This document shows, piece after piece, positions 42,101 to 63,491 of a stretch of 64,000 nucleotides of DNA. This DNA is from Yuukianura sp. NJ FZ-2021 (lineage: Eukaryota), in the NCBI GenBank assembly GCA_046563655.1, contig CM102283.1, positions 8,556,001-8,620,000 on the forward strand. The letters run 5' to 3'. Under the pieces are notes generated by a model. That model worked only from the letters and a program-made list of their open reading frames with translations, was not told the DNA's origin and ran no database searches. The stretch's first letter is position 1, and each line of letters opens with the position of its first letter. Made by a program: the position numbers and the translations under genes.

Positions 42101-44057
42101 TATCACATTTTCACTTTTGTTGATGAAATTTTCTGAAATATCTTTGAAAACTTTTTTTTTTGAATTTTCAGTTTACTGGAAGAGGCTGAACGAAATCTGG
42201 AAGAGAAGGGGACTGCCGTCACATCACCAGTCGGAGCTGGAAATCGTCGCCGCGGCGGTGGTCGTGGCGACATTGTGAAGGCTCCTCAAGGACCCAATTT
42301 GAGTTGTCTTCTTGCTCAGGTCAACAAGGACATAACGCTAAAGAGTCACGCTCTATTTGAAGTTGGCGGCAATGTTGGTAAGTTTGAAACTTTCAAAAAA
42401 AATCGTTTAATTTTTTTTACATTTTTGAAAATGGAAAAGACATCAGCACTTTTGTCTCTCTCCCAAAGTGAAATTCTGAAATTGAATTGAGCCAAATGAT
42501 TATTGAAATGGACAGAGTGTGGGGTTTTCTTGGAAATCAATTTTGTGAAACCGGAGAAGAAAGATTTCCCTATGGAAAAGAAAAGTTAACGTTAGGAAAG
42601 ATGTGTCTTGAGAATCTTCTCTGGAGACCATTGTCTCAACTCAGCCATTCAATGTTCTTCAGATGGAGGTTTCCAGCATAATGGATCCAGAAACAGCATT
42701 TTCCTGTTCTAGATCCAGCAACAGTATTTTTCCTGTCGGTTCCACCTGCTTTCGTCCTGTTTTTCAAAAAGTGTGAGATTGATTTCTGTTGAATGTTGAT
42801 CCAGGTCATCGCCTTTTCTCTTTTGTAGGTCAGGGAGAAAAGTTTGTGATTTCTCTCCTGTCGGTCTCAATTTCATTCAATGGAAATTTCAATGGTGGTG
42901 AATAATTGAGTTTTCGTGAAGAAAGAAAATGGCTTCTTTTTCACGCCAACACCATTCAGTTTCTTTGTTTTTAGCTTCCTGGAAAGCCTAAACTTTCTTT
43001 TCTGAATTGATTGAGGTTGAGTGCCTTTGGTGTTTCGGATTGGAAGTTGAACGGGAAAAGTTGAAAATGAGGCCAATTTGGTTAAGAGTGAAACAGAGAG
43101 TGGGAAAACTCTACCGGAAAATTGAGAAAATCGAAAACTTCCTTTTGTTTTCTAAGAATTTATGGGTGCTTTTGTTCTAATGATTATTTTAGGATAGGAA
43201 AAGATAGGCTTTTTGGGAACATCGCTTGACTTTTGTTCTAAAACAATGAAAAAGTGGCAGGAGAAAGTAAAATTGTGTTGTGTTCTTTAAAAACTAAAAC
43301 TTTTACACTTGATTAGTCGTTTGATGCTTTAAGTACAAATGGCTATCGGGCATTTGGGGAAAGTCAGAGCTAGAAGTACGTAGTAAAAGAGGCTGTTTCG
43401 TGATACAAGCAGTATCTAAATGGAACATCATTCAAACAGAACTCTTCGGTTTTCTGGTTTTGACAAAATGGGAGTAATCGGACTCCAGAATCGTGTTTTT
43501 CGGGTTAAAAAGCTTTTTCGAAGAGTCTTTGAGTCGTGACCGCAGAGGGAATTTGGAAAAAGGAGAAAGTTTTTCGGTTTGGAAGTGTCATTTAAAAGGA
43601 GATCGGGAATGTCTCTTTTGATTCTTTTGTTTTTTGATCTCCCGCTCTTTTCTTTTTTGAATTCTTGAGAGAGGTCAATGACCTCGGATAGATCAGTTGA
43701 CTGCGCATCGGATTTATTGCTTGAAAGGAGTATTTGCTGACAAGAAGACTTTTCTTTGAACATTGAACTTGCAAATGGAAAGAGAATTGGAGTAATTTGA
43801 GAAAATTTTAGTGTCAGGTTCAATTTGTTGACGGAAATGTCCAACCTAACCTAACTATTTTTGTTAGGACTCGTTTTTGGCAGAAATTTATGAAAAAATG
43901 ACATAACCTAATAAATTTTCATTTTTTTTTGTGTGATGCAGGCTATAGACGTGTGGATCCCTCTGCGCTTATCCCAGCGATCATCAGAGACAATCCGTCT
44001 GCAGCTTGGGTCCTCCGTTGCTCCCATAGACATTCCCAACCATTCCAGACAAACTGA
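39124..44057 (+). CDS. conu: Rho GTPase-activating protein, ARHGAP18/28/40 (Drosophila conundrum) type, about 12 exons
   Basis: N-terminal EEEFWREV...EGETEADWLNEVGF. RhoGAP domain: GVFGLSLETLLNKDRK...EGLLRLGG...HDVANLLKQFIRELPVPLL...NKMGLCNVAMILAPNL. C-terminal HALFEVGGNVGYRRVDP..AWVLRC, typical of this subfamily. Stop 44055-44057. Confidence 0.88.
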
Positions 44058-47838: not shown

Positions 47839-50673
47839 TTAGTAGGATGCTAGTTCAGCTCCCCATGGACGGTAGGGTTTGCCACCATTTGGAACGTAGA
47901 GACTGGTGGTGGAGTTGGTGGGGCTTTGGTGGGGGAAGGCATATGGTGGCATTCCGTAGCCACCGGAGGTGGCTGTGGCATTTCTGTCTTGTGGAGATGT
48001 CATGGTGTGATTGAGCTGGTGGTGGCGCTGGTGGTCCATGTGGAGATGCTGATTGGTGGCCATGTACTGGTCGGGTGGGTCCATCAGAGGAGGTTGCTGT
48101 GGTTGAGGTCCTGCAAAAAGTCAAAATTTTAAAACAAGAATTGAAAAAGAAGTTTTTTGAAATTTGTAGGAAAGACAAAACGAAAGGTTGCCATCTAAAC
48201 TATCTGCAAAAGCATTTCAAAGTTGGTGTAGAATGAAAAGCTGCGAAGTCTTGCCAAAGGATTTGTCAAAAACAATGCATGGTATAATCCAAAACTCAAA
48301 ATTTCGAAACTCTCAACTTCAGCAGTAGTTTAGGAAGCAGGAATTCAAAAAAATGTTAAGCTTATGAAAATTTTTAGCAAAGAGAAAACTGAACGACGCC
48401 TGCCAACATTTTTGGAAAAAGTGTTTCAAAATCTTATCGTGGAATTCAAAGTTTTTTGGAGTCGTTACTCAGTCAAATTCAAAAACCGAGAAACCGGTTT
48501 GAATGTTTTAGAAGTTGAGGCGGAAAAATTCAAAATTTCAAAATTTGAAAAATCTCACCAGTATTTGTAGCGTTGAGATTATGATGTGGTAGGGTGTATG
48601 TTGGAGCTGGAAGTGTCCAGGATGATGCTGCTGCCTGTTTGTTAGCAAGTTCACGTTGTGCCAATGAGCAATGTAGGTGTGACATTAGTTTTTGACATAG
48701 TGGACTCTGTGAATCGTAGCCTTCTGAATGCAGTAAAGTTCCCGTTTCACGGATACATTCACGAAAACCAAGAGAGTGGTAGTCCATAGCAAATTTTTGA
48801 GGGTCATAAGCCAGGGCATCAAATCCTAAAATTTCAAAAAAAACTCGGCGTGACTACTTTTTTAAAAAAGAAAGTACGATATGAAACAATAGACCAAAAA
48901 AACTTTCTGAAATATGGAAGATTTAGCTCCTGATGCTTCCCATTATACACATTTTTAAGATAATTTTGAAGATCACGATAATTAATGTCTGATAGCCCAA
49001 AAATTCCGGTTTTTGGATCTTCCCGGACTTTTTCCCACGGAGTCAGTCTGGCGGTTTTTTTGAAAAGCAAAAAAAAAACAGTGTTTTGATGTTGTTTGGC
49101 TCCATGACGGTTGCTCCTGCTACTTTTTTTAAAAGCTACTTTACGCCTGCGTACTTTACTCGAACTTTTCATTTTAAGAACTTTTTTTTCCGGTAAAGTC
49201 TTTAGTGTGGATTCTGGAAAAGATTAATCTAAGAAAAACCGGATTTTGAAAAAAAAATCAAAATGAAGCAAAGTTCGTGATCTAAAGTTTGTACTTTACT
49301 TTCAAACTTTTTTTGAAAATAACCTTTTGTTCGTGATCTACGACTCGACGTAAGAAAATTACAACCAGAAATTACACCCGCCCCTTTGTGCTTCTTGGGA
49401 AGCAACAAGTATCCAGCAACTTTTTTAAAACATTTTTTTTTGAATTTTGATGAAAACGGTCTTTATGATTTGATGGCGGGGTTATTTAAAAATTTGGAAT
49501 TTTAAAATTGTGAAGATGCCCGTTTTGATTAAAAGTAAGGTCGAGAGTTGGTTTTCATTAAATAAGAATTTGGATGACTTTGTTGATTGTGTGGAAGTGG
49601 CAGGGGGCCCTTCGCTCTTAGTTGTAAGGGGGCCCTTAACTTCCCATGGATGAAAGTGTGTTTAATTGTTGTGTAATTTGGGTTGGCGCCGTCGGGAGGT
49701 CAAAGGGCAAGTCAATTGGGGGGAAGGGGTTAGGCCCTGGCCAAGGGCCCCTCCTTCGACAGACCCACATGACAACCTGCAATTACACAATTTGAACACT
49801 GTTTCATGTTTTTTTCTGGAAGGAACAACAACGGCTCATCAATCACAAGACACCTCATTACGAAACGCCACTTGAAAAAAATCTCAAATTAAGTTAAAGT
49901 TGTAACGTTCTTTCTTTTAGGTTTTTTATTTTCGGTATCGTCTCTACAAAGTGGAAAAAATCGGAGTTTTTAAAAAATTTGGCAAAATTTGTTTTGGTTT
50001 TGTGAAAACTGAAACACCGAAAAATCCGAAAACTTCTGCAGTAAGCGTTTTTGTAATAAATTTCAATCACGTTTCAAATTTTAGCAGAGCTGTTTGATTT
50101 TGTGTGTGTAAAAGCTTTGGATAGAAAAAAAACCGTTTTGAGAGAAATTGAATCAAAAGAGCATAAAGGTCACGGGGATCAAGATCAAGAGCCTAATGTG
50201 CTTGGAATTCGAAATTTTGAAAATTATTTTTGAAAAAACTTTTTTTTGAAAGTGTTACCTTTGGAATGAATCATCTTCAAGTGATCTACAGTCATTTGTA
50301 GTATCTCTGCTTTCTCTAGCTTTGCTGAACCCTGTTTCTCGAAGGCCGTGGGAACGAGACGCCGCAGTTCCGATAAACTGTTGTTGATCCGATCACGGCG
50401 TCGCTTCTCAATGATTCCACGGCGCTTCTTTCGCGTCTGACCTTGGTGGCCACAACTCTCTGGAGGCGTCAGACAACTGCAAAAAACATTCAAAATTTCA
50501 AAATTTTAAAATTTTGTATTTCAAAAAAAATAAATTCTTTTCCGTTTCACTTCAGGTCCTTAGTTCACTTTTGTAAAAAGTTTGAAAATTTAAATTTTGT
50601 TTAAATTTTACCTTGTTTTATGTTCAGAAAAGAGGTCATCGCAGTCACTGTCGCTGAGAGCTCTTTTGGCCAT
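47839..50673 (-). CDS. Hey: Hairy/E(spl)-related bHLH-Orange repressor with YRPW motif, 272 aa; exons 50612-50673, 50259-50476, 48559-48825, 47839-48110
   Basis: [15 protein letters not shown] start; b[56 protein letters not shown]; Orange domain [17 protein letters not shown]-terminal [13 protein letters not shown]. Confidence 0.97.
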
Positions 50674-53600
50674 TTTCGAAATTTGGAAATTTAGTTCTTG
50701 TGGGTCAGTTGACACTTTTTGAGTCTTTACAAGTTTCTTATTTGCACACTTGAGAACTTAAGGGGTTGGAGACTAACCACTTTTTGCTGTACTTTTAGTC
50801 AAGTCTTTAGCAAAAACGGATCTTGAGTTGAGGTTGATTATGTAAATATGCCAAAGAAAAAGAAGAAGACGTTCCCACGGTTCTTCTTCTCAAAAGTCCC
50901 ACTCGCAAAAAGTACTAAAAAATCGGTTATTGTCAATCACTTTAAATTAAGGAGGGACAATTCAAAAAAGTTTAAATTTTCAAAAATGGCGCCGCTAATG
51001 GCAGTTCCGCTTTTTGTGGGGTTATTGTCCTTAGAATTTGTGTACTTCCGGTGGCGTTTGGTGGTTCCTATCGGTCGTCGGACTGCCACGTGTCTGACGG
51101 TAGTTTGAGCAAGTGACGGGGACTTTGGCCGCCGGTCGGCCAGGGGGACCCTTAGAAGACTAAGTTAAGGGCCCCTCCAGGAAACCCCCTCTTTTACAAC
51201 CTAGCCTAACAACAATGGGGTTTCCAACGAGGCTATGGGATGATCACGTCGGTCCAAGGGAACAAGTGAGAGAGTCCGCAGTGGAAGATGATCGTGGGAA
51301 CGGGATCTTCGACACACAGAACAAACAACTGTCGTCGTCGTCGGCCACACCACCAGCCAACGTCAATTCATCACTCGCCAAAAGCACAAATCAAATTCAT
51401 CCGCGAGAAATGTAGTTTGAAATTTTCAATTCAATTTGTCCAAATTTTGAAAATTTTTAGTAACAATTTACACTCAAACAACTTCAACAATAGATGCAAA
51501 CTAGTTTAAAACCTTTCACAAAATTTCCTGAACAAAAAATTTTCTTCTTCCGATTAAAATTTTTTTCTTGTCACTTTTAAAATAGAAGCCGAACTTAGCT
51601 TGCAGGTGCATTTTTCAATATTTGTATTGAGCAAATTTTCAAAAACTTTTTTTTTTTTTGAAATTTCAAATTTTTCTGTTTTTGTTCTTATGAACTAGAG
51701 CTCATAAGTTATAACTTATAAGCATATAAAATTTTGAAAGGGGTGATTTTTTGTAGCCTGTTGCTGTTTTTTGTGGTCTCCGACATACAGCGTCCCTTTG
51801 AGTATAGAAAGAGAGGGAAACTTTTTCGTAAGTGTAATTGGTTCCCACCGTTTTCAAAAATCCAAGCGTCGCTAAATGGCAAGGACTTTCCCATAGTAGT
51901 GACAGCATTAGGTTAGGCACCTAACCTAAACTAATGTTACCAAGACGCTGCTCACACATTCACCACCGCCAGCCAACCGTATACCGACCACCGACCCACC
52001 GAACTTCGGTTTTCCACAAAACAGGAACTTGAATCAAATTTCCCAGAAAAAAAGTTTCAAAAACTTCAAGTTTTTGAACCGACACGTTCCTAAGATTATT
52101 CAAATCCACCCAGTTCGCGCGTGGCGGACTCTAAAATTTAAAGACGGTGCAAAAGATATGCGAGAGATCAAAGGTTGCCGACAAAGGTCAAAGGTCACCT
52201 GATGCAATTATCTCCATGTCATGTACATGTTTCAAGGAAATGCTAAAGTGAATTAAGATTTCCCGCTCTTTTGCAGAACTTCATCTCCGAAATAGCAAAA
52301 AAACAGGAAACAAAAGTTGGAAATTAAGTTTGAAAAATTCCGGAAAAAGAAGAAAACTTTTGTTTTCTGACGTTTTTGGTCTGGAAAGAAACAAAGACTA
52401 AAGTGAACGTACGATGCAGAGGTCATTGACCTCCGCCTTTGTAGTTCACAGAACAATCGAAATCCAACTAAAAAGTTTGTTTTTTTATTCAACAAATTTT
52501 CATTTGAATTTGATGTTATTCCAATATGAAAGTAAGAGTTCATTCTCCTCCTGTGTTTTACTACGCTTCTGTCAGTAAATATAAAGTTCAGAGAGACAGT
52601 AAAACGGGAGATTTCAAATTTCAAAGCCTCTGTTCCTAGGAATTCCAAAATTTCATCATTTCCAAAACAGCCTCTGGAGAAAGTGGCTGGTTGTGGATGG
52701 GAACTTTGTTAATTGTATGGATTTACAAGGATTCCAAGTCCTTTCACCTCCACCACTACAAACAAAAGGAGAGGTTTACATTAGGTGCATTCTTGGTTAG
52801 GTTAGGCTAACAACCTAACAGGAAGTGCTTAGCCTAACTTTTAGTACACGAACTCCTTCCAAGTCTATTTTTAGTCTCACCTGAGAACTTTCTCCTTGAT
52901 TTCATCACACCAAAGTAGAAGAGGTCTCACGGGAAAGCTTGGAAATTTGATTTAACTGAAAGAAAACAAGAGAAACGTGAACTGAAAGCTCGTGCCTTTC
53001 TTCGTTGATGAAAATTTTGGCGCTCAGAAAGTGTGTCACGAGATTCAATTGAACAAGTTTCTCCCATGGGGTCAACTGAGGTCATATTGAGTAGGTCATT
53101 AAGTGTCATCGTGCTACTAACTTCTGGAGACACTTTGAGTGCTAAAAGTAAAACTCAAACAGAAATCGGAAACTTTTAGCCTAACTTTTCACACTTCCAG
53201 CCAATCCCGCTTTTGTTTCATCAAGTGAAAGTGGTTTGGGCGGGAGTTTTTTAAAGTTTCGCTTCTGAAGCTTTCCATCTGAAATTTTAAAGTGAAGATT
53301 CTTTACAGAACTTTACAGTACAAAAGCAAATGAATCAAAAAATCAAACCCATTTTTTCTAAAACACCAAATTTTGAAAAAATTTGAATAAGGGCCCCCTC
53401 TTTCCAAGGCTCCCTTGAAGAAAAGGAAGACAAGGGTATTGTCTAGAGTTTGAATGGAGGAAATGATGTTTAAGGGCCCACGACCTTCTGAAGGGCCTCG
53501 ACAACAAAACTTCATTCATTCTTAAGGCACCCTCTCCTCATCTTCTGTTTCTAGCCTAGTTTCAACCTATCTCCTGGTTCTTATTACAGAGGAGGAGGGG

Positions 53601-54371
53601 AGAAAGGCGGTGATTCAGTGGATCTGTGAGGTCAAAGGTCATTTAATCTTCTGGAAGTGCTAAGGGGGGCCCTTGGAAGGGGAGACGGAAGGGATAGTGT
53701 TCCTTAACACTGTTTCCGGATAGTCTAACATTTCTACTTTGTTTGTAAATTGGACTCCCTAGGATGAATCAGGTGAGTTTTAAAAGGAAAAGATGAAATT
53801 GGAGTCTCTGGGCTAAAGGCTGGAAATTGAATGGCCGGGATGATTTAAAAAAAGCGTTTTTTTTGAAAAGTTGAGGGTTACAGTCCGTGGGAACTGTGCA
53901 ACTCCGTTGATCTTAAGAACAAAAGAGACAAAGTACCCCGGACCCTTAGACTTAAGGGTGCGAAGGGTCCGGGGTACTTCGTCTTTGGTAATAAGTTGGG
54001 CTAGGGTTAGGTTGGACGTGTTGCCAGACAGAAGGAGGTCACCGGGGACACACGAGACGGAACGACGGCTTTCCACAATCCAGGAAATCCAGAATAAAAT
54101 TAAGAAAAGACGACCGACGCGTGGTTCAAGGAGAGAAAAAGTTTTTGGAAAAAAAAAGTTAAGGAAGCCGGGCGACGAAAAAATAAACACTTTTACCCCT
54201 ACCATTTTCAAAAAAAAGACCATTTTCTAAATTGCATCTTTTTTTTTCCTTTTTTTGAAATTAATTCTTGGCATGATGCAGCCAATTGTACCAAAAACTG
54301 AATGAGGCCAAAGCAAAAAACTTTTCTTTCGGCTCATTTTTGGTCATAAAAATTCTAAGAATGAAGAAAAT

Positions 54372-55537
54372 AAACTTCTTGCAAAGACGATGTGAATAAG
54401 TATCGTCAGATCAATTATAGAGAATTCCCAAGCCGAATAGTTGACCTAGACCTCTGATATTGTTAGAGGTTACTTGAGGTCAAACAGCATTCGGCATTAT
54501 ATTAATTATTAGCAAACAGCAATGTTAATATTATATTAATTAATATTATTAATATTAACATTAATATTATGTGAATTAATATCAATATATATAATATTAA
54601 TATTAATTAATATAATATTAATAATATTAATCCTCGCGTCGTCAAACATCCATCCCCGAATTTCTGAATTGTGGGGAAAAAAAGATGACCTTGACCTTTG
54701 ACCCTGTTAGAGGTCACTCAAGCTCATCAAAATCTGATCCCCGCATATCCCTTCCGAGTCTGCCCATCCGTTTCCGTAATGTAAATGGAGCACAACCTTG
54801 ACCTATGACACGAATAGAGGTCACTTAAGGTGAATCCAAAAACTGATTTTTAGTCATCTGGTTTGTAGTTACTCATTAAAAAAGCTGCTTAGAAATCAGT
54901 GCAGTGGTTGTCGAGTTATAAGCATTACAGACGGACAGACGGACGGACGGATGGACAAAACGATCCCTATAAGTATCCGACGATACTTAAAAATGTACAT
55001 GACCTTGACCTTTGACCCGGAATTTGGAGACTTCCGATCAAACCAGAAACCGATTAGTCACCCCTGTACCATGCGAAGGTCATCTATGAAGACAGGTTGA
55101 AAATCTGTCCAGTGGTTCGTGAGTTATAGACGCTCGTAGAATGAGCGACGCCATTTTGCAACTTTCATTGTTTATATCTCCAGAACCGTAGGTCAAAGGT
55201 CAAGGTCACCTATAGCAAAGTTGTTCCTCTCATTGAAGTGAACAACTTTTGTAGAGGCCATGTGTCCAAATTCCGTCGAAAATGTACTTGACCTTGACCT
55301 TTGACCCGGAAGTTGGCCACTTCCGGTCAAACCGAAAACCACTGGTCCACCCCTGGACCATGCGTAGTTGATCTGTGAAGACAGATTGAAAATCGGTCCA
55401 GCGGTTCCAGAGATATTGTAGCTAGTATACAGACGGACGGACAGACAGACGGACAGACAGACGGACAGACGGACAGACGGACAGACAGACGGACGGACAT
55501 TACGATCCCTATAAGTATCTGACGATACTTAATAAAA
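54372..55537 (-). mobile_element. Composite non-autonomous Helentron/DINE-1-like element (HINE)
   Basis: Inverted subterminal repeats AAGTATCGTCAGAT (54398-54411) and ATCTGACGATACTT (55517-55530). End hairpin AAGTATC-N4-GATACTT at 55513-55530 and again at 54971-54988. GTCY microsatellites at ~54927-54957 and ~55428-55499. Duplicated internal repeat at ~54991-55128 and ~55280-55416. T-rich flanks on the minus strand. Confidence 0.75.
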
Positions 55538-56941
55538 ACTTTCACTTCATTCGAAAAGTGAACTTTTGAAAATAAGCTGCAAAACACGTTTCACAAAAAT
55601 CCCGATCAGGAAAACTACAAAATCAGTATATTTTTTTCCTGCTCTTTTTATAAAAATTCTATCCACGATTTAAATTAACTCAAATAATTTCAAATTTTTT
55701 TTAAAAATGGACTTCATTTTTCGAATTTTTTTTTTATGAAAGTTGCTCATTTTGATGGTCCAGAGGATATTTACTTGTTGTTTCTAAATAGTGAAATGTG
55801 GGGAGACATGGATTGAATTGTGGGAACCCTTGAAGTAGTCCCTGGGCCCTTCGCTGTCCCTGACTCTTTTGGTAGCAAGTGTGTAAGGGTTCCTGCGTTT
55901 TCGTGTGAACAGGGGGGAGCCCTTGGTTCCCACGCTTCAAACCCTACATCACCACCTTCATATCCCGCTTTCAGGTGACTTCCTTCCTCTCTGGAAGCTT
56001 ACCAAGGGCTCACTGAACCCGCCAAATCCAAAAAAAACCGAATTCGGATTTTAATCTTTTGGCAATTAAGCACCATGTGCAATAAACGCCAGAAGCATGC
56101 ACTTCATTTAAAAAGCTTCCCACGCTTCTTTAACTTTTTCCAACTTTAGCGAAGCTCGAAATTGGGAGAGGTCAAACTAGGTCAACAAAGGTCACTCATC
56201 TCCACGCTTTTTTTTTCAAAAGTTAGTTTTTTGGGCGTAGTACTACTTTCAAAGCCAAATATACGAATATGCTGGTTCTGTAAACGGAGTTCCAAATAGT
56301 GTGGAAAAGAGCGGGAAAAAATTCGGTTCTAAAAATAAACCCGGGAAAACTTTCTCCTCATTTGTCAACGTCGGTCTGTCGGGAACATTTTTTATTTGCC
56401 AAAAAAAATCTTTTGCTTTGCTCAGGTAGGAAAAGTTTTCACTTCTCTTGTTGACTGAAAGTTGGAAAATATTGTTATCCGACAAAAAAAATTGCAAGAA
56501 AAAATCTTGTTTTCCAAAATTTATGCGTGTTTTGAGTAAAACTGAAAACACGGAAGTGGAAAACAGAAAAAGAGTGATTCAAATGAGGCAAAATTTTGGC
56601 ATTCGAAATATAAACAATGACAACCAGGATTGTTTAGAATAGTAAACGATATGCAAAGACGGTTGAACTTTTGCAAAAGCACGAGAGTTTCTTCTTCCTG
56701 TTCAACTTTCACTTTCATTTGAACAAATTTGAACAAGAACAGAACAAAAAACTTAAGAAAGAAACATATAGTGTGAATTGAGGAGCAGAAGATACGATGT
56801 TTCTAAAATTACTTCTATTAGTTGCTTCACTTGAACACGAAAGGAATCGTTAGTCTCTCATACAGGACACTTCTGCACGGAAATTTCTACACCGCTGTGC
56901 TTATAGACTTACATCAATGTACCATAGTGTGCTACGGACGG

Positions 56942-57112
56942 CAGTCTTGGTGGATGGATAAAACTTTTCTTCCATCTCAGTCGAAATTGGTGGAAGTATC
57001 CGGATTTAATTGGATATATCCAATTTATCCAGCCATTTCAGCCGGATAAAATTGGATGAAACCTTCTATCCACTGGATGAAATATCGAAAAAGTGGATAT
57101 CCACCAACACTG
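56942..57112. mobile_element. hAT-like MITE, 171 bp
   Basis: TIRs CAGTCTTGGTGGAT and ATCCACCAACACTG (1 mismatch in 14). Flanking 8-mers ACGGACGG and TTGGACGG (6/8) suggest a degraded TSD. Internal TGGATA/TATCCA repeats. Confidence 0.6.
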
Positions 57113-57522
57113 TTGGACGGGACATGACATACGATCAGGAATTATGTATAAATGTCCGTCCACACTATTTTCGTCCATGAGTTAATCGTCCATGGCTATC
57201 CGTCCATGACCGTCCTGTCACTGGTCAGCTCTTGTGCAGAAGTTAGGGAGTAATCGTGCCTCAGAATTATTCTGGAAAGAAGCTTCCGCCTTGCCCAACT
57301 TCCCTTGGCGTGTCTGTGTGTGAGCTGGATGTTGATCTTCCACTTTCTCTATTTAAGGGCGGTTGGAAGCTGCTGGAGGAGAAAGTTCACTTTCTCTTTC
57401 CCGACAAGCATCTTCTCCAGTATTCAGCATCTTCTCCAGCATCAAGCATCTCCAGCAGCACAGTTCCTGGAGTCTCTGCTGGACCCAAGTTTCTGGAACA
57501 ATAATATTGTACGGCCAGAGTC

Positions 57523-60500
57523 ATGAGCTCTGCTCTGACGGCCGCCGGAATTCTCGGAGGAACCTTCTTTTTAGGAGTTCCACGTAAGCAATTAATTCTC
57601 TTCCGTTTGACATTGAGTTGCGAACGAACGGTTTTTACACATTTTTTAAATCGTAAAAACTAAAAAAAAAAATAGAACTGAAACAATTCCAACTTTGAAT
57701 TGCGTCTGATCCTAACTAACCGTAACTTTTTGAAAAAAAAAACTTTTTGGAAAATTTTGAAAAATCAACTTCAAGGTTGGTTTCTCTTCTCCCTGGTTTG
57801 TTTGTTGCTTGTTGTTTTCTGAAATTTGAAACTTTTGTTTTTGCGTTCGACGCAACATCTTAGAGTTTCATACGAAATTCACATAAAAAACAAAGTTATG
57901 TGAAACCGGAAACTTTAGCGATGGGACTGTTTTTGGGTTTAGAATTTCCAATATAAGCCGGAGAAAGTTTTTTTTTAAAAAGCATTTTGGTCAATTTTGT
58001 TATGTTTTTAATTTTCTAAGGTTAGATTAATTTTAGATAAGGTTATGTTTTTTTGTTAATTTTGTAAAGGAGAGGTCAAAATCCAGGGTCACAGACTATA
58101 CGTGTCCGTGACGCCCTGCAAAGCTTTAGCAATTGACTAAGCTCGTTAATCTTTTGGAGCATTTCAATTCCCAAGTGGCTTTATAAGAAGCAGAGCCAGT
58201 GGCCGCTTTACTTTCACTTTTTTGAAAAGATTTTTCCATAACCTTTTTTCTTTCCCGCCGTTGAAAGTTCAAGGCCGGTTTGTCTTTTCTAATTTATTCC
58301 CTGGAGAGCTTTCACTTTTCCCAGTAGTTGCTACTTTTAAAAAATACCAAACTGCCTAGTGCATTAAATGCTAAAAGGAAGCCTCCCTGCCGTCCAAAGT
58401 GCCTCTTTTCCAAAATCTTTTGATCTCTCGAACATGAAAGTTGAAGAAAATCTCTGCATTAGACACATTCGCACTCTCACAACATGAAAACTTTTACTCT
58501 TTACAAAATGCTTCACTTGAAGTTCAGTTCACTCTGCAGTGGGTTGTAAAGCGAACTTGATTTTCAAAAGGATATTTAAAGTCGATTTGGAAGTAGAGGG
58601 AGCCATCACAAATTACTTTTCTGTTCCAACTAATTTCAAAAGTGGGTCAATTGTGGAAGGTCGCAAATCTCAAAATGTTGGAAACAGAAAACCGAAAAAC
58701 TAGAAAAGTTTCTGTTTTTGGAAAAACACACACAAAAAAGTTTTCGGATAGAAAAACAAATTAATCCTTGTTTATGAAACAGTTTTCAAGGAAGAAAGAC
58801 AAATGGAGAAAGCGTGTTTGTTTCCTTGTTTTGTCTCCCACGACTAAAAAAAAAGTTGACACCAAAACACAAAACACAACTTCTAGTCTTTTTAGTCTTC
58901 ATGTCAAAACATTCATTTTAGGCTTTAACTTAAATTGTGTTAGGCTAGGTCTGAGAATTTCCTACACACAAACCAGTTCTAATTTGTGATGACAAAACTT
59001 TTTTTGTAAACAAGAAATTACATCGTTACGTAGCGACACTTTTGTCGCTTCGTTGCATTCGTTGTCAGCCTTACATAACATTAAACCAAAAAAAACTAAT
59101 ATGAAAGCTAGTTAACCTAAAAAACTAAAGTATAACCTGGCTTTCTGCTGCTGAGTCTTAAAAAAAGTTTTGTGACTTTCAGTAAACGGTGGGACGGTGC
59201 TGATTTTTTTACGACGAAAAAAGTTGCGACATTTGGTCAACTTTTTACTACTTTTGGACTCTCTGTCACATCTTCTGGTCACTTTCATTGTCATACCAAA
59301 TCGACTAGTCTCAACAGGTAAAGAAAAAATTTTAGAACAAAAACACAACGTAGTAGAAAAAAGTAGAAGAAACAAAAAATTTTTACTACTTTTGAACAAA
59401 ATTTGGAAAAAAAATTTTTTGTGATTCAAAATAGTTGGTTTAGAAGAATCCGGATCTCTGGATGTCGCTGAAGATTTTGTTTGTGATTTTGCCAACATTC
59501 ATGGAACGCTGCTGACCCTATCGATTGGAATCCTCAGATACAGGTTCAATTTTTGAATTTTTAAAACATAAGTTATGTGTTAGGCTATGCATAAGTTAGG
59601 CTTTACTGTCTGCGTTTTACCGCAAGGTAAAAACTAGAAGTTATTTTATGTACGGTGAAAGTTATGTGGGAAAAGTGCCAAAGGGCGCGTAGTTTCGAGA
59701 AAGTAAAGTTATAACCTAACGAAAAATGTTAGCCTAACGTTAACCTAACATTTGTTGTTGTTGTAGGCGTCTCTGCTGGAAAAAGAAAGATGGTTTCTGT
59801 CTAGTCAACGGCCTCAAATGGTCGCTGGGAAATTCCGCTCTTGCCCTTGGGCTCGTCGTAGCACAATCAACACTTTCAAATTTCGCGCCAACAGAAGATG
59901 GCGGCAAACGTCTCAATCTCATTTTTTATGCAATCAAAACCAGTCTATCCATATCATCCGTAAGAAAAAAACATTATTTCTCATTTTATTTTTAGAAAGA
60001 AAAACTTTCTTTTCGTTTTTTTTTTCATTCCAAATTGGATTTATTTTTCTCAAGCATCTCAAAATACAAAAATCTAATCTAATCTGAGTTTTCGAAATTG
60101 AAATTTTGTGAATTAGGTTTTTGTTGTTGTCTGGTGCTACGCCTGTGTGTGTTGGCGTGTCCTGAGGAACTCTTCGTCACAGGAGAAGTTGCGTAGATCT
60201 CGGAGCGTCCATATCCGAGCAATGGTCCATTCAGTAATTCAAATTGTACTTTTGGCATCCACCATTGCATCTTTTATTTATACCGAGACGCTTCAACTCC
60301 GCCCGGCTCTGCTTGAATCAGCGTCTCTCAAATTGAATCTCGTCTATGGAACGGCAACCAACTACGCCCTTCTTGTAACTGGGTAAGTAAACAAACAAAT
60401 ACAAAGTCAATCAATCACGAATTCTGCGTCTTCACAGAATTTCATTTTCTAGCGATTTTCAATTTCTGAATCCTGAGAATTATAAGGAAAGTAGAGTGAC

Positions 60501-63491
60501 AGGAGAAAGGTCTTGCATAACTTTCACCCTGGACTTCATCTGAGAATGACAAATTATAACATTTTGGTTAGGCTAAGTTTAGATGGTTAGGTTGGATTAG
60601 GCTAAAAGTAGTTAAAGATGTTAGGCTAACCTAGTTGGTGAAAGTAAGAGAAAGTAATTGGAACTGTTCCGTAACTGGAGATGTGTTGACATGACAGCTT
60701 TTCTTTGACCTTCAAGAAAACGAAGGACTTTGGGTTTCTTCAAGGACAAAAACAGAAATTTTCTAAGTTTCAAACTTGTGGTTTTAGATTACTGACATTC
60801 ACATGAAATCTGTAGGAGGTGAAAGTTTAATTTGGCACATTTGCTAAAATTCTTTGAAAATCTTTCAATCTAAACTTTGTTTTTTTGTGATTTGTGTTGA
60901 GAAGGAACAAAAGTTATTTTGAAATTTTGGAATTATTTCTCATTATGTTTACAATCAGGATGTGTAATAGCATTGTTTATTTCTATTCCTTTGTTTTCTT
61001 CCATTGTTTTTGTAATGTAATTAGAACCTTCTGGTGTGAGAAATTATGTAACTGCGAAGTTTTAAAAAAATAGGAACAAAGTTGGAGAAAAACAATTATG
61101 GTGTGGGAAAAACACAAGAAGCGCCCGTTCTCGTTAGAAGCGAATCACAACAAACTTTTCCAAATTCAATTTATTTTCTGAATACGAATCTGGGTTAATT
61201 TTTCGTTTTCCTAATTTTTCATTTTTTTATTCCTTTTGAAAATTTCCAGGTTAAACACGCCTTTTTCCAAATTGGCCTACATTTTAAAGTCAAAATTTAA
61301 ATCAAAAGTGGCACTTTTCTTTCGTTCTTGAAGTTTTTCGGACAAAGTGAACTTTAATGTGTGACTGAGAAAAACGCTTTTTAAAAAGTGCTTGTTTTTT
61401 CGAAAATCGTTTTCCTTTTAACGGCTTTTCTGTTTTTTGGTTTAAGCGTCAAAGTAAACGAGCGGAGAAAGTGTTGACTTTTGAAATTGACACGAAAAAG
61501 GAAGGACGCGCTGGTTGTTCAAAAAAGTCAATTTAGAACAAAAAAAAATTTGAACAAGGAACTTTCGACGTCACACGTTTGACTTACTTTTAGTACGTTT
61601 AAAAAGTAAGTGAAACTTTTTCCCGCCAGAGAACTGTTTTTGGTTGTAACTGTAGTAACTGCCCACAGGAGACTTTTGAATTTATAGAGACTGTTTTCCA
61701 GGTTAAAATTGGATTGACCTGGGTGGGAAAGCAAACAGATTTGAAAGAGGCGGGTTTGCATTTGGCAGTTTTCAAAAAAGGGCGCTTAAAAAGTGTTGAT
61801 TTGAAAAGAGGTCAATGACCTCCTGTATTTTTCAGCTTCAAAACCGACAGGAGTTACTCACCTCTTTCAACTTATTTTGAATATGACTGGAGTTTGATTT
61901 GTAGGCGGGTGGGAACTTTTTTTGGAAAGAAGGTGGAGGCGTACAGGGAATTGAGTTCAACGGTCTCTCAAAATTTTCTAAAATGGAAAAATGAAACAAA
62001 AGTTTTCAAATTTTCATTAAGAAGCCCTTTTTAACTTCTGTTCTGAACTTCCTCGAGCTTTTTACATTTAAATTCTTCAAAGAAAGTTAAAAAACGAGAC
62101 ATAACTTGACTTTTTAAGAAAAAAGAAAGCCAAAAGTAGAACATCGCCGCTGTCGTGAGTTGAATGAGAAAAAGAAAATTGAGTTCAACTTGATAAGGAA
62201 TTTGAAAAATGCTCAATTTTAAATTTCATTATGCTTTGTTGTATCTTCCAAACAAATTTATTCCAAAATCCCAAAAACTGGGCAAATCCAAAACAGCTCA
62301 AATTTTTTGAATATTCGACACTTTTTGGAACTTTTGAGCTGAACGAAGGTTGCTTAGCAGCCTAGATTTTGCAATGGTATATCAGATTTCAAAAGAAGAA
62401 GATTTCCCAACCTTTTTTTGAAATTCTGGATTTCGAAATTTCTTGAAAAAGACGCATTGACTCCAGGAAGTTGAATTCAGGTGTCGTAAAAAGATTTGTA
62501 AGGAAAGAGTGGACGGAAGTGTCGCCACTTTATTTCTTCCACTTCGTTTCTTCCTGGAGACATTGATGTCTACGGTTGAACAACTTGGAGAAAAAGTACA
62601 GTGTGAATGCCACTAAAAAACCGGGAAAAAGCCAGGGGTGAGAAAACTACCGGTGAACATTCAAAAAAAAGCGGTGAAAGTAGAGTAGGCTAAAGGCAGG
62701 AGAAAGACTATTAGGAAGAGAGATGCTATCACAAATCACAAAGGGAGGCACAAAGTTATGGAACGACCCTCCCGTGACCGTTACCCACCAACCCCCCCCC
62801 CACCCATCACATACACATAGACCCCCCCATTCCTCCTGTTACCCGGTTTTTTATTACCCGCTTCCCCACTTCCGTCATTTTCTAGAGCAGTAGGTCTCCC
62901 GGATCACCAAAAACTTTTGCAAATTTTAGTCAAAAATTTTCAAAGTAGGGTTATGCGTTTTTTAAACTTTTGAGAAATAAAGTAAAAGTTGAAAATGTTG
63001 AAAATTTTTAAGTTTCCCGCTTTTTTTTTTGCAGAACGCCATTGGCATACTTGGCTTCCTGTCATCGTTTCCGAGAGGAATTTACTTCCCTGTTCTTTGG
63101 AAGTGTCCCCAGAAGACTTTTTCAGAAGATTTCAACTGACAAGAAAGTGGCCTGTGGGCCCAAGAGTCACTTGATCATGCGCAGTGATGGGAAGAATATG
63201 AGACACAAAGTGGTTGCTAGGCGACCATCCACTCCAAGGACACTGACCTCTACGACATCTTCTTCGACGTCGTCCACTGCAGCTACTGCCACAGTGTCAG
63301 TCGTCCCTTGTCCAAAACCGGTACGACCACACCATCTACCGGCGGCAACTCAAAGTCGCTCCCCAGACCAGTTCATGTACCGGTTTTTGCAAAGGAAGCA
63401 AACGGGGTCACCGGCAGGTCACGTAGCGACCTACTTCAAACATCATCATCAGTCTGAGTCATCCAATCCTAGTCCCGTAGATTTCATTTAA
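57523..63491 (+). CDS. Divergent rhodopsin-like (class A) 7TM receptor; exons 57523-57583, 59435-59543, 59767-59959, 60117-60382, 63035-63491; 5' end unresolved (possible TM1 at ~57265-57384)
   Basis: All four introns are GT-AG with matching phases (1, 2, 0, 2). The joined protein has successive hydrophobic helices: ALTAAGILGGTFFLGVP; GTLLTLSIGILRYRRLC (DRY position); LKWSLGNSALALGLVVA; LIFYAIKTSLSISSVFVVVWCYACVCWRV; AMVHSVIQIVLLASTIASFIY; LVYGTATNYALLVTGTPLAYLAS (NPxxY position). A helix-8-like RFREEF and a Ser/Thr-rich tail follow. Confidence 0.7.

What the first reader, a model, noticed from the sequence alone, without database searches (positions are those of the whole stretch)
57265..63491. 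Hidden, highly divergent GPCR-like gene with rewritten activation motifs, head-to-head with Hey
Seen: five exons, mostly absent from or mis-framed in the ORF track, splice with consistent phases into a multi-helix membrane protein. Known: class A GPCRs carry TM2 LAxxD, TM3 DRY, TM5 Tyr, TM6 CWxP, TM7 NPxxY and helix 8 FR. Here DRY reads LRY, NPxxY reads TPLAY, the TM2 Asp and TM6 CWxP appear absent, and ECL2 has no obvious Cys, while the TM5 CY and helix-8 FREEF persist. Inference: an orphan or lineage-specific receptor (chemosensory-like, or with atypical coupling). It is transcribed divergently from Hey across about 6.6 kb full of Su(H) sites, so it may be a Notch co-regulated gene.
Basis: partly seen in the sequence, partly recalled or inferred. 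Interest (0 to 1): 0.75.

Follow-up and report, generated by a model that had tools for sequence, protein, structure and literature searches.

The report
Divergent orphan receptor gene beside Hey
A real six-exon gene lying head-to-head with the Notch-target gene Hey encodes a very divergent rhodopsin-type membrane receptor whose only named relatives are uncharacterised springtail proteins; its ligand and function are unknown.

Summary
The gene is real. Six GT-AG exons (57523-63491, + strand) splice into an open 406-codon frame. It aligns over all five junctions with an uncharacterised 519-aa protein of the springtail Allacma fusca (46% identity, 224 bits). Named relatives come from only three springtail species.

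Profiles of the family match solved class A GPCRs (best E 7e-8) but stay below the Pfam 7tm_1 cut-off.

N1.50, R3.50, Y3.51, W4.50, Y5.58, P7.50, Y7.53 and the helix-8 Phe are kept. D2.50 is His, with an Asp one turn lower at 2.46. DRY is LRY and NPxxY is TPLAY. There is no CWxP, P5.50 or TM3-ECL2 disulfide. The hydrophobic lock positions 3.43 and 6.40 are Thr and Gln.

Corrections: six exons, not five. The family is annotated in relatives, so it is not entirely hidden.

Hey and the receptor are divergent, 6,850 bp between start codons, and linked on one contig in two springtail orders. The spacer holds six Su(H) consensus sites and one paired site with a 17-bp gap. Notch co-regulation of the receptor is untested. 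No expression data and no AlphaFold model could be obtained.

Verdict: an orphan, lineage-restricted variant of a known receptor class, of moderate interest.

The parts
57523..57583 (+). Receptor coding exon 1. It holds the ATG and the first half of TM1, with a phase-1 donor gtaagc.
   Evidence: One search gives the splice flanks and frame. Across the junction the protein reads G-x-P|L-N-G, matching the invariant G-L-P-L-N-G of relatives. This is the least supported exon: alone it has no BLASTP match to P0010, and no N-terminal profile hit.
59183..59317 (+). Receptor exon 2: N1.50, ICL1 (R-R-K-K-L-R-H), and TM2 with D2.46 and H2.50.
   Evidence: 66% identity to P0002; tblastn. Pfam Srsx is sub-threshold at E 0.008. 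NPY1R alignment, E 0.07.
59435..59543 (+). Receptor exon 3: ECL1 and TM3, ending in L-R-Y (3.49-3.51).
   Evidence: (54% identity to P0002).
59767..59959 (+). Receptor exon 4: ICL2 (R-L-C-W-K-K-K-D), TM4 with W4.50, a Cys-free ECL2, and the start of TM5 with K5.43.
   Evidence: BLASTP to P0002, 50% over 40 aa, E 1e-12. Also.
60117..60382 (+). Receptor exon 5: TM5 (Y5.58), a short ICL3, TM6 (H6.36, S6.37, Q6.40, no CWxP), ECL3 and most of TM7.
   Evidence: 9 HMMER hits, E 1e-6 to 2e-4; 12-sequence alignment. In one search, 7 of 8 unnamed ORF fragments end at the same residue as this exon, which suggests a conserved intron position.
63035..63491 (+). Receptor exon 6: T-P-L-A-Y (7.49-7.53), helix 8 F-R-E-E-F, a Ser/Thr/Pro-rich C-tail of about 126 aa, and the stop codon TAA.
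   Evidence: 63% identity over the first 35 aa; tail composition.
57265..57522 (+). Presumed promoter and 5'UTR of the receptor. GC is locally 0.50. It contains a TATA-like octamer at 57350-57357 and a 19-nt tandem repeat at 57405-57451.
   Evidence: The role is inferred only. No transcription start site data exist.
55902..55934 (.). Su(H) paired site: two sites head-to-head with a 17-bp gap (CGTGTGAA on +, CGTGGGAA on -).
   Evidence: In one search, 3 of 1000 simulated windows contained any such pair with a 15-17 bp gap. The definition (head-to-head, 15-17 bp) comes from passages of PMC8494340 and PMC7685452.
50872..56124 (.). Six single YGTGRGAA Su(H) consensus sites between the two start codons, starting at 50872, 51293, 53886, 55819, 55927 and 56117.
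47848..50673 (-). The Hey gene (bHLH-Orange-YRPW), divergent neighbour. Its exons are about 50673-50612, 50476-50257, 48826-48551 and 48112-47848.
   Evidence: Exon ends are approximate.

Best explanation
SHOWN. Positions 57523-63491 (+) hold an intact six-exon gene for a 406-aa seven-helix protein. It belongs to a small, conserved, uncharacterised receptor family whose named members are all from springtails (Collembola). The family is a distant offshoot of rhodopsin-type (class A) GPCRs. The gene is divergently linked to Hey. Hey and this receptor also share a contig in two springtail orders.

INFERRED MECHANISM (about 0.5 that it signals through G protein and/or arrestin at all).
- The protein keeps the residues that build the cytoplasmic transducer site: R3.50, Y3.51, I3.46, Y5.58, P7.50, Y7.53, the helix-8 Phe, basic intracellular loops and a Ser/Thr-rich tail. 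So it most likely still couples to a transducer.
- The upstream switch machinery is replaced. The sodium pocket (2.50, 3.39, 7.45, 7.49) reads H, G/S, L, T.
- Four of the six residues of the hydrophobic barrier next to the G-protein site (2.46, 3.43, 6.36, 6.40) are polar and invariant: D, T, H, Q.
- D3.49, the acidic 6.30 and W6.48 are gone.
- In model receptors, loosening 3.43 or 6.40 gives constitutive activity, and 2.46 contacts 2.50.
- My reading (about 0.3): the polar core has moved one helical turn towards the cytoplasm. It then acts as a polar rather than hydrophobic lock. That would give either high basal activity or gating by a small polar or charged ligand.
- Invariant K5.43, N3.36, N7.41 and Y7.42 line the presumed pocket. 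The window protein has almost no N-terminus and short loops.

REGULATION. The Su(H) cluster and paired site in the spacer are most likely Hey's Notch enhancers. Sharing of these enhancers with the receptor is possible (about 0.25).
For: GENE.
- Canonical splice sites and an open frame.
- Spliced product against P0002 (Allacma fusca): 45.9% identity over 294 columns, model 18-280 against 45-334, 224 bits. Against P0010: 44.9% over 236 columns plus 68.8% over 32.
- tblastn of three relatives hits exons 2-6.
- In the 7TM core, 131 of 270 positions are identical to P0002.
- Exon GC exceeds intron GC for all exon-intron pairs.

FAMILY.
- HMMER of exon 5 against 1.84 billion representatives gave 9 hits at E <= 1e-3, all of this type.
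- P0002 against 5.8 billion clusters gave 3 hits among 8000 scored candidates, all springtail.

CLASS A AFFINITY.
- Family profile against the PDB: 35 hits at E <= 0.1, every one a class A GPCR or a rhodopsin-derived chain. Best were SWS1 opsin 7.4e-8, CCK-A receptor 3e-4, rhodopsin 8e-4 and MT1 1e-3.
- P0077 alone: CCK-A receptor 2.9e-7.
- Window exon 2 alone: 10 of 10 hits are GPCRs, best E 0.07.
- The ESM Atlas model of P0002 gives TM-scores of 0.67-0.78 to ten GPCR clusters.

TOPOLOGY. Seven hydropathy peaks. Lys+Arg counts are 5, 5, 5 and 8 on the predicted inside loops and tail, against 1, 2 and 2 outside.

RESIDUE TABLE. One search covers four sequences. Q6.40, H6.36 and S6.37 are present in 12 of 12 TM6 sequences.

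LITERATURE (passages read).
- Sodium pocket, lock residues, the 2x46:2x50 contact and A2AR mutants: PMC6954041.
- Hydrophobic barrier 2.43/2.46/3.43/3.46/6.36/6.40: PMC5630584.

LINKAGE. The receptor and Hey proteins lie on one 186,043-bp contig in Allacma (accessions ...132 and ...135). They lie on one 5,166,756-bp contig in Orchesella dallaii (...077 and ...081).
Against: - No expression or junction-read evidence of any kind.
- Pfam 7tm_1 is below its 30.5-bit cut-off in 4 of 4 long relatives (15.1, 15.5, 22.6 and 17.9 bits). No window exon reaches any 7TM model's cut-off.
- The TM5-TM7 half has no detectable sequence match to any solved structure: exon 5, 0 hits; start of exon 6, 0 hits; seven-sequence TM5-TM7 profile, 0 hits at E <= 10. 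The TM6 numbering therefore rests only on the Pro of relatives and on R/K at 6.32.
- The hydropathy peak count is not discriminating. Shuffled sequences give a mean of 8.1 peaks.
- Exon 1 lacks stand-alone similarity.
- The window copy is the family outlier. It is 33-47% identical in TM5-TM6, against a mean of 62% among the others. It alone lacks P6.50, which 11 of 11 others have. Relaxed constraint cannot be excluded, although Hey of the same genome is also unusually divergent.
- Residues that model receptors need for agonist response are missing (D2.50, N7.49). Loss of classical signalling is therefore a live alternative.
- An AlphaFold model and a Foldseek search could not be obtained.
Confidence: 0.85

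Rival explanations
1. It is a non-canonical or 'silent' 7TM protein. It has the receptor fold but has lost ligand-driven G-protein activation. It would act as a scaffold, a decoy or an arrestin- or PDZ-linked protein.
For: D2.50, N7.49, W6.48, P5.50 and D/E3.49 are all replaced. In A2AR, D2x50A and N7x49A abolish the agonist response (PMC6954041 passages). All four C-termini end in a hydrophobic residue, and the tails are Ser/Thr-rich.
Against: R3.50, Y5.58, Y7.53, I3.46 and the helix-8 Phe are invariant. ICL1 and ICL2 are almost identical between the window and springtails. That pattern is what one expects if a cytoplasmic transducer still binds.
Confidence: 0.2
2. It is a chemosensory receptor.
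For: The best Pfam match of P0002 and of window exon 2 is the nematode chemoreceptor family Srsx, at 20.8 and 16.0 bits against a cut-off of 24.1. The extracellular parts are short.
Against: The match is sub-threshold. The search found a single member in each of the three named species (it was limited to proteins of 285-909 aa and 8000 scored candidates). There is one locus in the window. Position next to Hey is conserved and the intracellular loops are near-invariant. This is unlike expanded, fast-turnover chemoreceptor families. Arthropod chemoreception is known (recalled) to rely mainly on GR/OR/IR channels.
Confidence: 0.08
3. It is an opsin-derived receptor that is no longer light-sensitive, or that binds retinal at another lysine.
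For: The best solved-structure match of the family profile is a cone opsin (8y02_R, E 7e-8 over the N-terminus to TM4). Rhodopsin entries follow. Lys at 5.43 is invariant, and the window has Glu at 3.28.
Against: Position 7.43, which carries the Schiff-base Lys of opsins, is A/T/A/A. Relatives have Gln at 3.28. With P0077 as query, the CCK-A receptor outranks the opsin. With window exon 2, NPY1R ranks first. So the opsin hit is not consistent, and much of it lies in the generic K-K-L-R...N segment of ICL1.
Confidence: 0.04
4. The receptor is a Notch co-regulated gene. It would share the Su(H) cluster and paired site with Hey through the divergent spacer.
For: - Six YGTGRGAA sites lie between the start codons.
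- Nine lie in 47.5-57.5 kb against 1.8 expected (post hoc P about 1e-4). Eight of the window's 12 CGTGGGAA sites fall there.
- A head-to-head pair with a 17-bp gap lies 1.6 kb upstream of the receptor ATG and 5.2 kb upstream of the Hey ATG. Such a pair arose by chance in 3 of 1000 simulations.
- Three further sites lie in receptor introns, at 59665, 61035 and 61102.
- Linkage is kept in two springtail orders.
Against: Drosophila Hey alone has upstream and intron-2 Su(H) clusters that are validated Hey enhancers. Its neighbours there are CG11191 and Dic3, not a receptor (PMC11353301 passages). No expression data exist. Two and three other annotated proteins separate the pair in Allacma and Orchesella by accession order. 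Gene orientation in those species is unknown.
Confidence: 0.25
5. It is a pseudogene, or a chance concatenation of ORF pieces.
For: There is no transcript evidence. The window copy is the most divergent member and lacks P6.50.
Against: The frame is open for 406 codons over six exons with canonical splice sites. The alignment to relatives is continuous. All 24 family-invariant numbered positions are retained in the window copy.
Confidence: 0.03

Closest known systems
Uncharacterised springtail proteins CAG7826132.1 / UniRef A0A8J2L5V0 (Allacma fusca), CAL8144077.1 (Orchesella dallaii), and XP_035706310.1 and OXA56962.1 (Folsomia candida)
   Same: They share the same signature blocks: TM1-ICL1-TM2, L-R-Y plus ICL2, K-W-S, C-Y, S-R-S-V-H, and N-Y..G-T-P.A-Y..C-H-R-F-R-E.F. 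They share the same 24 invariant numbered positions. Hey lies on the same contig. The exon-5 end is probably the same too.
   Different: The window protein is only 46-49% identical in the core. It has almost no N-terminal ectodomain, about 2 residues against about 25-30. Its ICL3 is 6 aa shorter. It lacks the long low-complexity ECL3 insert and has Ser instead of Pro at 6.50.
Class A (rhodopsin-like) GPCRs, Pfam PF00001. The best solved matches are SWS1 opsin 8y02, CCK-A receptor 9bkk/7ezh, melatonin MT1 7db6 and the ghrelin receptor 7w2z.
   Same: Seven helices with N1.50, R3.50-Y3.51, W4.50, Y5.58, P7.50..Y7.53 and the helix-8 Phe. There is significant profile similarity over TM1-TM4/5.
   Different: D2.50 becomes H, with an Asp at 2.46. 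D/E3.49 becomes L and N7.49 becomes T. There is no CWxP, no P5.50 and no C3.25-ECL2 disulfide. Positions 3.43, 6.36 and 6.40 are polar. It scores below the Pfam cut-off. It cannot be assigned to any subfamily, because the top hit changes with the query.
Nematode Srsx serpentine chemoreceptors (Pfam PF10320)
   Same: This is the best Pfam score for P0002 (20.8 bits) and for window exon 2 (16.0 bits), over TM1-TM5.
   Different: The score is below the 24.1-bit cut-off. It is absent for P0010, P0077 and P0011. The phylum is different. One member was found per named species, not an expanded family.
The Drosophila Hey locus with its Su(H)-dependent upstream and intron-2 enhancers (PMC11353301)
   Same: Clusters of the same YGTGRGAA motif lie upstream of Hey. 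One site lies in the intron between the bHLH and Orange exons (49032).
   Different: In Drosophila the upstream neighbour is CG11191, tail-to-head with Hey, not a divergent receptor. The paired site with a 17-bp gap seen here is not described in the passages I read.

Membership tests
Class A rhodopsin-like GPCR (Pfam 7tm_1, PF00001) | Score at or above the Pfam gathering cut-off (30.5 bits) | tested here: not met
   Relatives score 15.1, 15.5, 22.6 and 17.9 bits. None of the window exon pieces gave a 7tm_1 hit. The spliced window protein itself could not be submitted.
Class A rhodopsin-like GPCR | Seven transmembrane helices, N-terminus outside, C-terminus inside | tested here: met
   Seven hydropathy peaks at the positions expected from the alignment. 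The positive-inside rule holds: 5, 5, 5 and 8 Lys+Arg inside against 1, 2 and 2 outside. The peak count alone is uninformative, because shuffles give about 8.
Class A rhodopsin-like GPCR | Significant sequence similarity to solved class A receptors | tested here: met
   Family profile: 35 hits at E <= 0.1, all class A receptors or rhodopsin-derived chains, best 7.4e-8. P0077 against the CCK-A receptor: 2.9e-7. This covers only TM1-TM4/5. The TM5-TM7 profile gave 0 hits.
Class A rhodopsin-like GPCR | Fold similarity to 7TM receptors | tested here: inconclusive
   There is only the ESM Atlas model of the relative P0002 (pTM 0.51, pLDDT 0.55). It gives TM-scores of 0.67-0.78 to ten GPCR clusters. 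No AlphaFold/Foldseek result was obtained for the relative, and none was possible for the window protein.
Class A rhodopsin-like GPCR | N1.50, W4.50, R3.50, Y5.58, P7.50, Y7.53, helix-8 Phe | tested here: met
   All are invariant in the window and three relatives.
Class A rhodopsin-like GPCR | D2.50 (sodium pocket), with S3.39, N7.45 and N7.49 | tested here: not met
   These positions read H, G/S, L and T. The register of TM2 was fixed by four alignments.
Class A rhodopsin-like GPCR | (D/E)RY with an acidic 3.49 and an acidic 6.30 | tested here: not met
   L-R-Y. Position 6.30 is H/H/H/A (the TM6 register is inferred).
Class A rhodopsin-like GPCR | CWxP in TM6 and P5.50 | tested here: not met
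   The window reads T-I-A-S at 6.47-6.50. Relatives read T-L/V-S/T-P. Position 5.50 is S/S/A/S.
Class A rhodopsin-like GPCR | NPxxY | tested here: not met
   T-P-x-A-Y in 4 of 4 sequences. Pro and Tyr are kept; Asn is lost.
Class A rhodopsin-like GPCR | Disulfide between C3.25 and ECL2 | tested here: not met
   Position 3.25 is D/L/V/A. The window ECL2 has no Cys.
Opsins | Schiff-base Lys at 7.43 | tested here: not met
   Position 7.43 is A/T/A/A.
Nematode Srsx chemoreceptors (PF10320) | Score at or above the cut-off (24.1 bits) | tested here: not met
   20.8 bits for P0002 and 16.0 bits for window exon 2. No hit for P0010, P0077 or P0011.
Springtail orphan receptor family (A0A8J2L5V0-like) | Family signature blocks and invariant positions | tested here: met
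   Continuous alignment at 46% identity, 224 bits. All 24 invariant numbered positions are shared. Exon-by-exon identity to P0002 is 39-66% for exons 2-6.
Springtail orphan receptor family (A0A8J2L5V0-like) | Linkage to Hey | tested here: met
   Window: start codons 6,850 bp apart, divergent. Allacma and Orchesella dallaii: same contig, with accessions 3 and 4 apart. Orientation in those species was not testable.
Springtail orphan receptor family (A0A8J2L5V0-like) | Pro at 6.50 and a long ECL3 | tested here: not met
   The window has Ser where 11 of 11 others have Pro, and its ECL3 is short.

The most novel reading that the evidence does not exclude
This would be a receptor family in which the whole polar core of a class A GPCR has slid one helical turn towards the cytoplasm. 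The Asp moves from 2.50 to 2.46. Thr at 3.43, His at 6.36 and Gln at 6.40 replace the hydrophobic barrier. The former sodium pocket becomes H/G/L/T. The result would be a new kind of activation switch: a polar or pH-sensitive Asp-His lock, or built-in constitutive activity. Under this reading the gene has stayed beside Hey since before the split of springtail orders because both are driven by the same Notch-responsive paired Su(H) site. The receptor would then be a Notch-induced surface marker or effector of Notch-ON cells.
Probability: 0.1. Interest if true: 0.65.

Novelty: new variant of a known kind. Interest (0 to 1): 0.35.

Why it matters
If it is functional, this family is a natural experiment on class A GPCRs. 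It shows which microswitches can be discarded (D2.50, N7.49, W6.48, D3.49, P5.50). It also shows which cannot (R3.50, Y5.58, Y7.53, helix 8). It offers a set of coordinated polar substitutions in the hydrophobic lock that can be tested by mutagenesis.

The conserved Hey-receptor pair, with a paired Su(H) site in the spacer, gives a concrete candidate for a Notch-regulated surface receptor in an early-branching hexapod lineage.

On the practical side, multi-exon receptor genes of this kind can be missed or truncated by annotation. The Folsomia GenBank model OXA56962.1 lacks TM1-TM2, while the RefSeq model is complete.

Otherwise this is one more lineage-specific orphan GPCR, and many of those exist.

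Tried and rejected
The one accepted job (alignment A3) failed as 'interrupted' after repeated collection attempts. So there is no AlphaFold model, and fold search was never run.

SEARCHES THAT FOUND NOTHING.
- Word-indexed search with exon 5, longer proteins: 0 of 108 candidates.
- Exon 5, the start of exon 6 and a TM5-TM7 profile against the PDB: 0 hits each.
- Pfam on single ORF or exon pieces: no 7TM family except the sub-threshold Srsx hit.
- Search for an upstream N-terminal exon with a profile of the relatives' N-termini over 220 + strand ORF pieces (51000-59182): best E 0.19, so none found.
- Rfam at gathering thresholds and a tRNA scan of the window: nothing.
- Pfam on 14 ORFs in the receptor introns, the antisense strand and the spacer: nothing, so no nested gene or recognisable transposon protein.

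HYPOTHESES REJECTED.
- Opsin: no Lys at 7.43.
- Nematode origin, suggested by tttcag acceptors: dropped once the relatives proved to be hexapod.
- My first reading that the TM2 Asp was D2.50: rejected by spacing and by four alignments.

TAXON PLACEMENT. treekit was unavailable (searches did not run). A neighbour-joining tree of Hey used 132 columns and 29 named arthropods, leaving out all unnamed hits. It puts the window on a long branch beside Allacma with only 51.5% bootstrap support. The species stays undetermined.

LITERATURE. These searches found nothing on this family:
- 'Collembola' + 'G protein-coupled receptor' + 'orphan': 1 paper, irrelevant.
- 'springtail' + 'GPCR': 21 papers, 15 listed, none relevant by title or abstract.
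- 'Folsomia candida'/'opsin'/'G protein-coupled'.
- Six accession or locus identifiers: 0 papers.

No eukaryotic genome collection was available. That ruled out tBLASTn of other arthropod genomes and checking gene orientation in springtail assemblies.

Full report
WHAT IS THERE

Reading the + strand between 57.2 and 63.6 kb and splicing by script gives six coding exons:
- 57523-57583
- 59183-59317
- 59435-59543
- 59767-59959
- 60117-60382
- 63035-63491

Every intron starts with GT and ends with AG. The phases are 1, 1, 2, 0 and 2, and the product is an open frame of 406 codons plus TAA. Intron sizes are 1599, 117, 223, 157 and 2652 nt. Each exon is richer in G+C (0.40-0.54) than each intron (0.21-0.35).

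In a default bacterial-style ORF list, only exons 2, 5 and 6 show up, and then as truncated in-frame ORFs. Exons 1, 3 and 4 are absent or covered by another frame.

IS IT MORE THAN CHANCE?

The spliced protein could not be handed to the search tools, so I searched with single exons.

Exon 5 (88 aa) gave nothing in the word-indexed search (0 of 108 candidates). Full HMMER against 1.84 billion representatives gave nine hits at E 1.4e-6 to 2.2e-4. Eight are short ORF fragments from unnamed contigs. One, P0002, is a 519-aa protein of the springtail Allacma fusca.

In a script, the spliced window protein aligns with P0002 at 45.9% identity over 294 columns. The alignment runs from model residues 18-280 to P0002 residues 45-334, scores 224 bits, and crosses all five exon junctions. 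It aligns with Orchesella dallaii P0010 from model residue 7.

tblastn of three relatives against the window finds exons 2-6 and no second locus. Exon-by-exon identity to P0002 is 66, 54, 42, 39 and 63% for exons 2-6.

Exon 1 is the weak point:
- Alone it matches nothing.
- A profile of the relatives' N-termini finds no better upstream exon among 220 ORF pieces.
- Its support is the ATG, the phase-compatible donor, its hydrophobicity, and the junction, which recreates the invariant G-x-P-L-N-G of TM1.

Seven of the eight unnamed fragments end at the residue where window exon 5 ends. This is what a conserved G|GTAAG donor would produce.

WHAT FAMILY?

P0002 has only two other long relatives among 8000 scored candidates: Orchesella dallaii and Folsomia candida. 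A complete Folsomia RefSeq model is P0077. The three species belong to Symphypleona and Entomobryomorpha.

Pfam 7tm_1 matches all four long relatives, but below its 30.5-bit cut-off: 15.1, 15.5, 22.6 and 17.9 bits. P0002 also gets a sub-threshold Srsx match. Window exon 2 gives Srsx at E 0.008.

Results against solved structures:
- Family profile: 35 hits at E <= 0.1, all class A receptors or rhodopsin-derived chains. Best were SWS1 opsin 7.4e-8, CCK-A receptor 3.1e-4, rhodopsin 8e-4 and melatonin MT1 9.5e-4 (similar).
- P0077 alone ranks the CCK-A receptor first, at 2.9e-7.
- Window exon 2 ranks NPY1R first, at E 0.07, with 10 of 10 hits being GPCRs.

The top hit changes with the query, so no subfamily can be named.

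The similarity is confined to TM1-TM4/5. Exon 5, the start of exon 6 and a seven-sequence TM5-TM7 profile each find nothing in the PDB.

The ESM Atlas holds a model of P0002 (pTM 0.51, pLDDT 0.55). Its nearest structural clusters are all GPCR families, at TM 0.67-0.78. Feature-space hits for exon 5 alone are leads only (0.89).

I could not obtain an AlphaFold model.

TOPOLOGY AND MOTIFS

Hydropathy gives seven peaks where the alignment predicts helices. Shuffled sequences give about eight, so the count by itself proves nothing. The charge distribution is informative: 5, 5, 5 and 8 Lys+Arg on the predicted inner loops and tail, against 1, 2 and 2 outside.

I numbered residues from these anchors: N of P-L-N-G (1.50), R of L-R-Y (3.50), W of K-W-S (4.50), Y of C-Y (5.58), P of T-P (7.50), and the Pro that relatives have in TM6 (6.50).

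The TM2 register is fixed two ways. The gap from N1.50 is 28 residues. Four independent HMMER alignments (SWS1, CCK-A receptor, rhodopsin, NPY1R) each place the family's Asp opposite L2.46 and its His opposite D2.50.

The table covers the window plus three relatives.

Invariant and canonical:
- N1.50, N2.40, I3.46, R3.50, Y3.51, W4.50, Y5.58, P7.50, Y7.53, and the helix-8 Phe.

Invariant but non-canonical:
- D2.46, H2.50, T3.43, L3.49, S6.37, Q6.40, T6.47, L7.45, T7.49.

Other observations:
- Positions 3.39, 5.50, 6.30 and 6.48 read G/S, S/A, H/A and I/L/V.
- There is no Cys at 3.25 and none in the window's ECL2.
- H6.36, S6.37 and Q6.40 occur in 12 of 12 TM6 sequences.
- Invariant K5.43, N3.36, N7.41 and Y7.42 face where the ligand pocket normally is. 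That placement is inferred from numbering, not from a structure.
- Position 7.43, the opsin Schiff-base site, is A/T/A/A.

The 'missing TM2 Asp' is really an Asp displaced by one turn.

HOW IT PROBABLY WORKS (INFERENCE)

Passages of PMC6954041 describe the common class A activation pathway:
- a sodium pocket (2x50, 3x39, 7x45, 7x49);
- a hydrophobic lock (3x43, 6x40, 6x41);
- then Y7x53 and R3x50;
- 2x46:2x50 is one of the pathway contacts.

In A2AR, D2x50A and N7x49A abolish the agonist response, while 3x43A/R and 6x40Y raise basal activity 2- to 28-fold. Passages of PMC5630584 define the cytoplasm-side hydrophobic barrier as 2.43, 2.46, 3.43, 3.46, 6.36 and 6.40.

In this family, four of those six positions are polar and invariant (D, T, H, Q), and the sodium pocket has lost its polar residues. 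The transducer-facing layer (I3.46, R3.50, Y5.58, Y7.53, helix 8, basic ICL1-3) is intact and is the best conserved part of the protein.

My best reading is a receptor that still engages a cytoplasmic transducer. Its internal switch has become a polar network one turn lower than usual. It may be constitutively active, or gated by a small polar or charged ligand or by protonation of the Asp-His pair. The window protein's near-absent N-terminus and short loops argue against a large peptide ligand.

None of this has been tested. The main rival is a protein that has lost classical signalling.

THE WINDOW COPY WITHIN THE FAMILY

It is the outlier. Core identity is 46-49% to the springtail proteins, against 60-70% among them. 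In TM5-TM6 it is 33-47%, against a mean of 62%. It has Ser where 11 of 11 others have P6.50, a 6-aa shorter ICL3, and no long ECL3 insert.

Hey of the same window is also unusually divergent. It is 78% identical to Allacma over 132 columns, where Allacma-Orchesella is 92% and cockroach-tick is 85.5%. So the genome's lineage seems fast-evolving in general.

A neighbour-joining tree of Hey places the window beside Allacma with only 51.5% bootstrap support. The species is therefore undetermined. It is a pancrustacean, most likely a springtail or a near relative, because the receptor family is otherwise seen only there.

HEY AND THE SPACER

Hey is confirmed on the - strand:
- HLH domain, E 2e-16, and Orange domain, E 1e-6;
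- YRPW motif;
- best named matches are springtail Hey proteins;
- ATG at 50673.

The receptor ATG is at 57523. The genes are divergent, with 6,850 bp between start codons.

One search gives linkage in two other species:
- In Allacma fusca, the receptor (CAG7826132.1) and Hey (CAG7826135.1) lie on one 186,043-bp contig.
- In Orchesella dallaii, the receptor (CAL8144077.1) and Hey (CAL8144081.1) lie on one 5,166,756-bp contig.

So linkage is conserved across two springtail orders. Orientation and the intervening gene models could not be checked.

Counts of the Su(H) consensus YGTGRGAA:
- 20 in the window against 11.5 expected; 2 of 100 shuffles reach 20.
- Six fall between the start codons.
- Nine fall in 47.5-57.5 kb against 1.8 expected.
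- Eight of the 12 CGTGGGAA copies lie in that same 10 kb.

These interval tests are post hoc.

With the broader motif, a head-to-head pair with a 17-bp gap appears at 55902-55934. Only 3 of 1000 simulated windows contain such a pair. Head-to-head sites 15-17 bp apart are the cooperative 'paired site' of Notch targets (PMC8494340 and PMC7685452, passages).

In Drosophila the same motif clusters upstream of Hey and in its second intron. Those clusters are validated Hey enhancers, and the neighbours there are CG11191 and Dic3 (PMC11353301, passages).

The economical reading is that these sites serve Hey. Whether the receptor shares them is open. The paired site lies 1.6 kb from the receptor's ATG and 5.2 kb from Hey's.

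NOVELTY

The family exists in databases as unnamed or uncharacterised proteins. I found no paper on it (main texts only, supplements not searched). It is a rhodopsin-type receptor by descent. It fails most of the class's defining microswitch features, and it fails them in a coordinated, conserved way.

I therefore file it as a new variant of a known kind, of moderate interest. Lineage-specific orphan GPCRs are common. The displaced polar core and the conserved Hey linkage are the two points worth following up.

Noticed in passing
window 10792-10821: A second head-to-head pair of perfect CGTGGGAA sites. Its gap is 14 bp, outside the 15-17 bp range for cooperative Notch complexes. It lies about 570 bp beyond the last detected exon of a saccharopine-dehydrogenase-like gene on the - strand.
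   Followed up: partly
window 54440-55540: A repetitive block in the Hey-receptor spacer. It contains (ACGG/ACAG)n arrays at 54919-54965 and 55429-55511, a duplicated 161-nt unit (54990-55150 and 55279-55439, 80% identical), five copies of a 35-nt unit, and an AT-rich palindromic array at 54521-54631. No Pfam hit was found in its ORFs.
   Followed up: partly
window 47848-50673 (-): The Hey protein of this genome is unusually divergent for so conserved a factor. It is 78% identical to springtail Hey over 132 bHLH-Orange columns, where cockroach against tick is 85.5%. This suggests a fast-evolving lineage.
   Followed up: partly
window 47549, 49032, 50347: Three further CGTGGGAA sites lie in and around Hey: one about 300 bp 3' of its stop codon, one in the intron between the bHLH and Orange exons (reminiscent of the Drosophila intron-2 enhancer), and one inside the bHLH coding exon.
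   Followed up: partly
window 4119-6296 (-), 7160-7940 (-), 9580-10226 (-), 40059-42490 (+): Other genes in the window by Pfam on long ORFs: DLEC1/CFAP65-like Ig-domain exons (all below cut-off), a C2H2 zinc-finger protein, a saccharopine-dehydrogenase-like protein (E 5e-13), and a RhoGAP-domain gene (E 1e-10) just upstream of the 3' end of Hey.
   Followed up: partly
window 57405-57451: A 19-nt unit repeated 2.5 times lies in the presumed 5'UTR, 72 bp upstream of the receptor ATG. A TATA-like octamer sits at 57350-57357, and the local GC of 0.50 is the highest in the spacer.
   Followed up: no
window 63477-63488, and the C-termini of P0002, P0010 and P0077: All four receptors end in a hydrophobic residue preceded by a short conserved-looking stretch. 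Three of the four share D-x-G-x-x-V. This could be a PDZ-type ligand. The window tail also has a run of about 13 Ser/Thr residues, typical of receptor-kinase and arrestin regulation.
   Followed up: no
P0011 (OXA56962.1, Folsomia candida): The GenBank model of the Folsomia orthologue lacks the stretch from N1.50 through TM2 that the RefSeq model P0077 contains. This is probably a missed exon, and it shows that this family is easily mis-annotated.
   Followed up: partly
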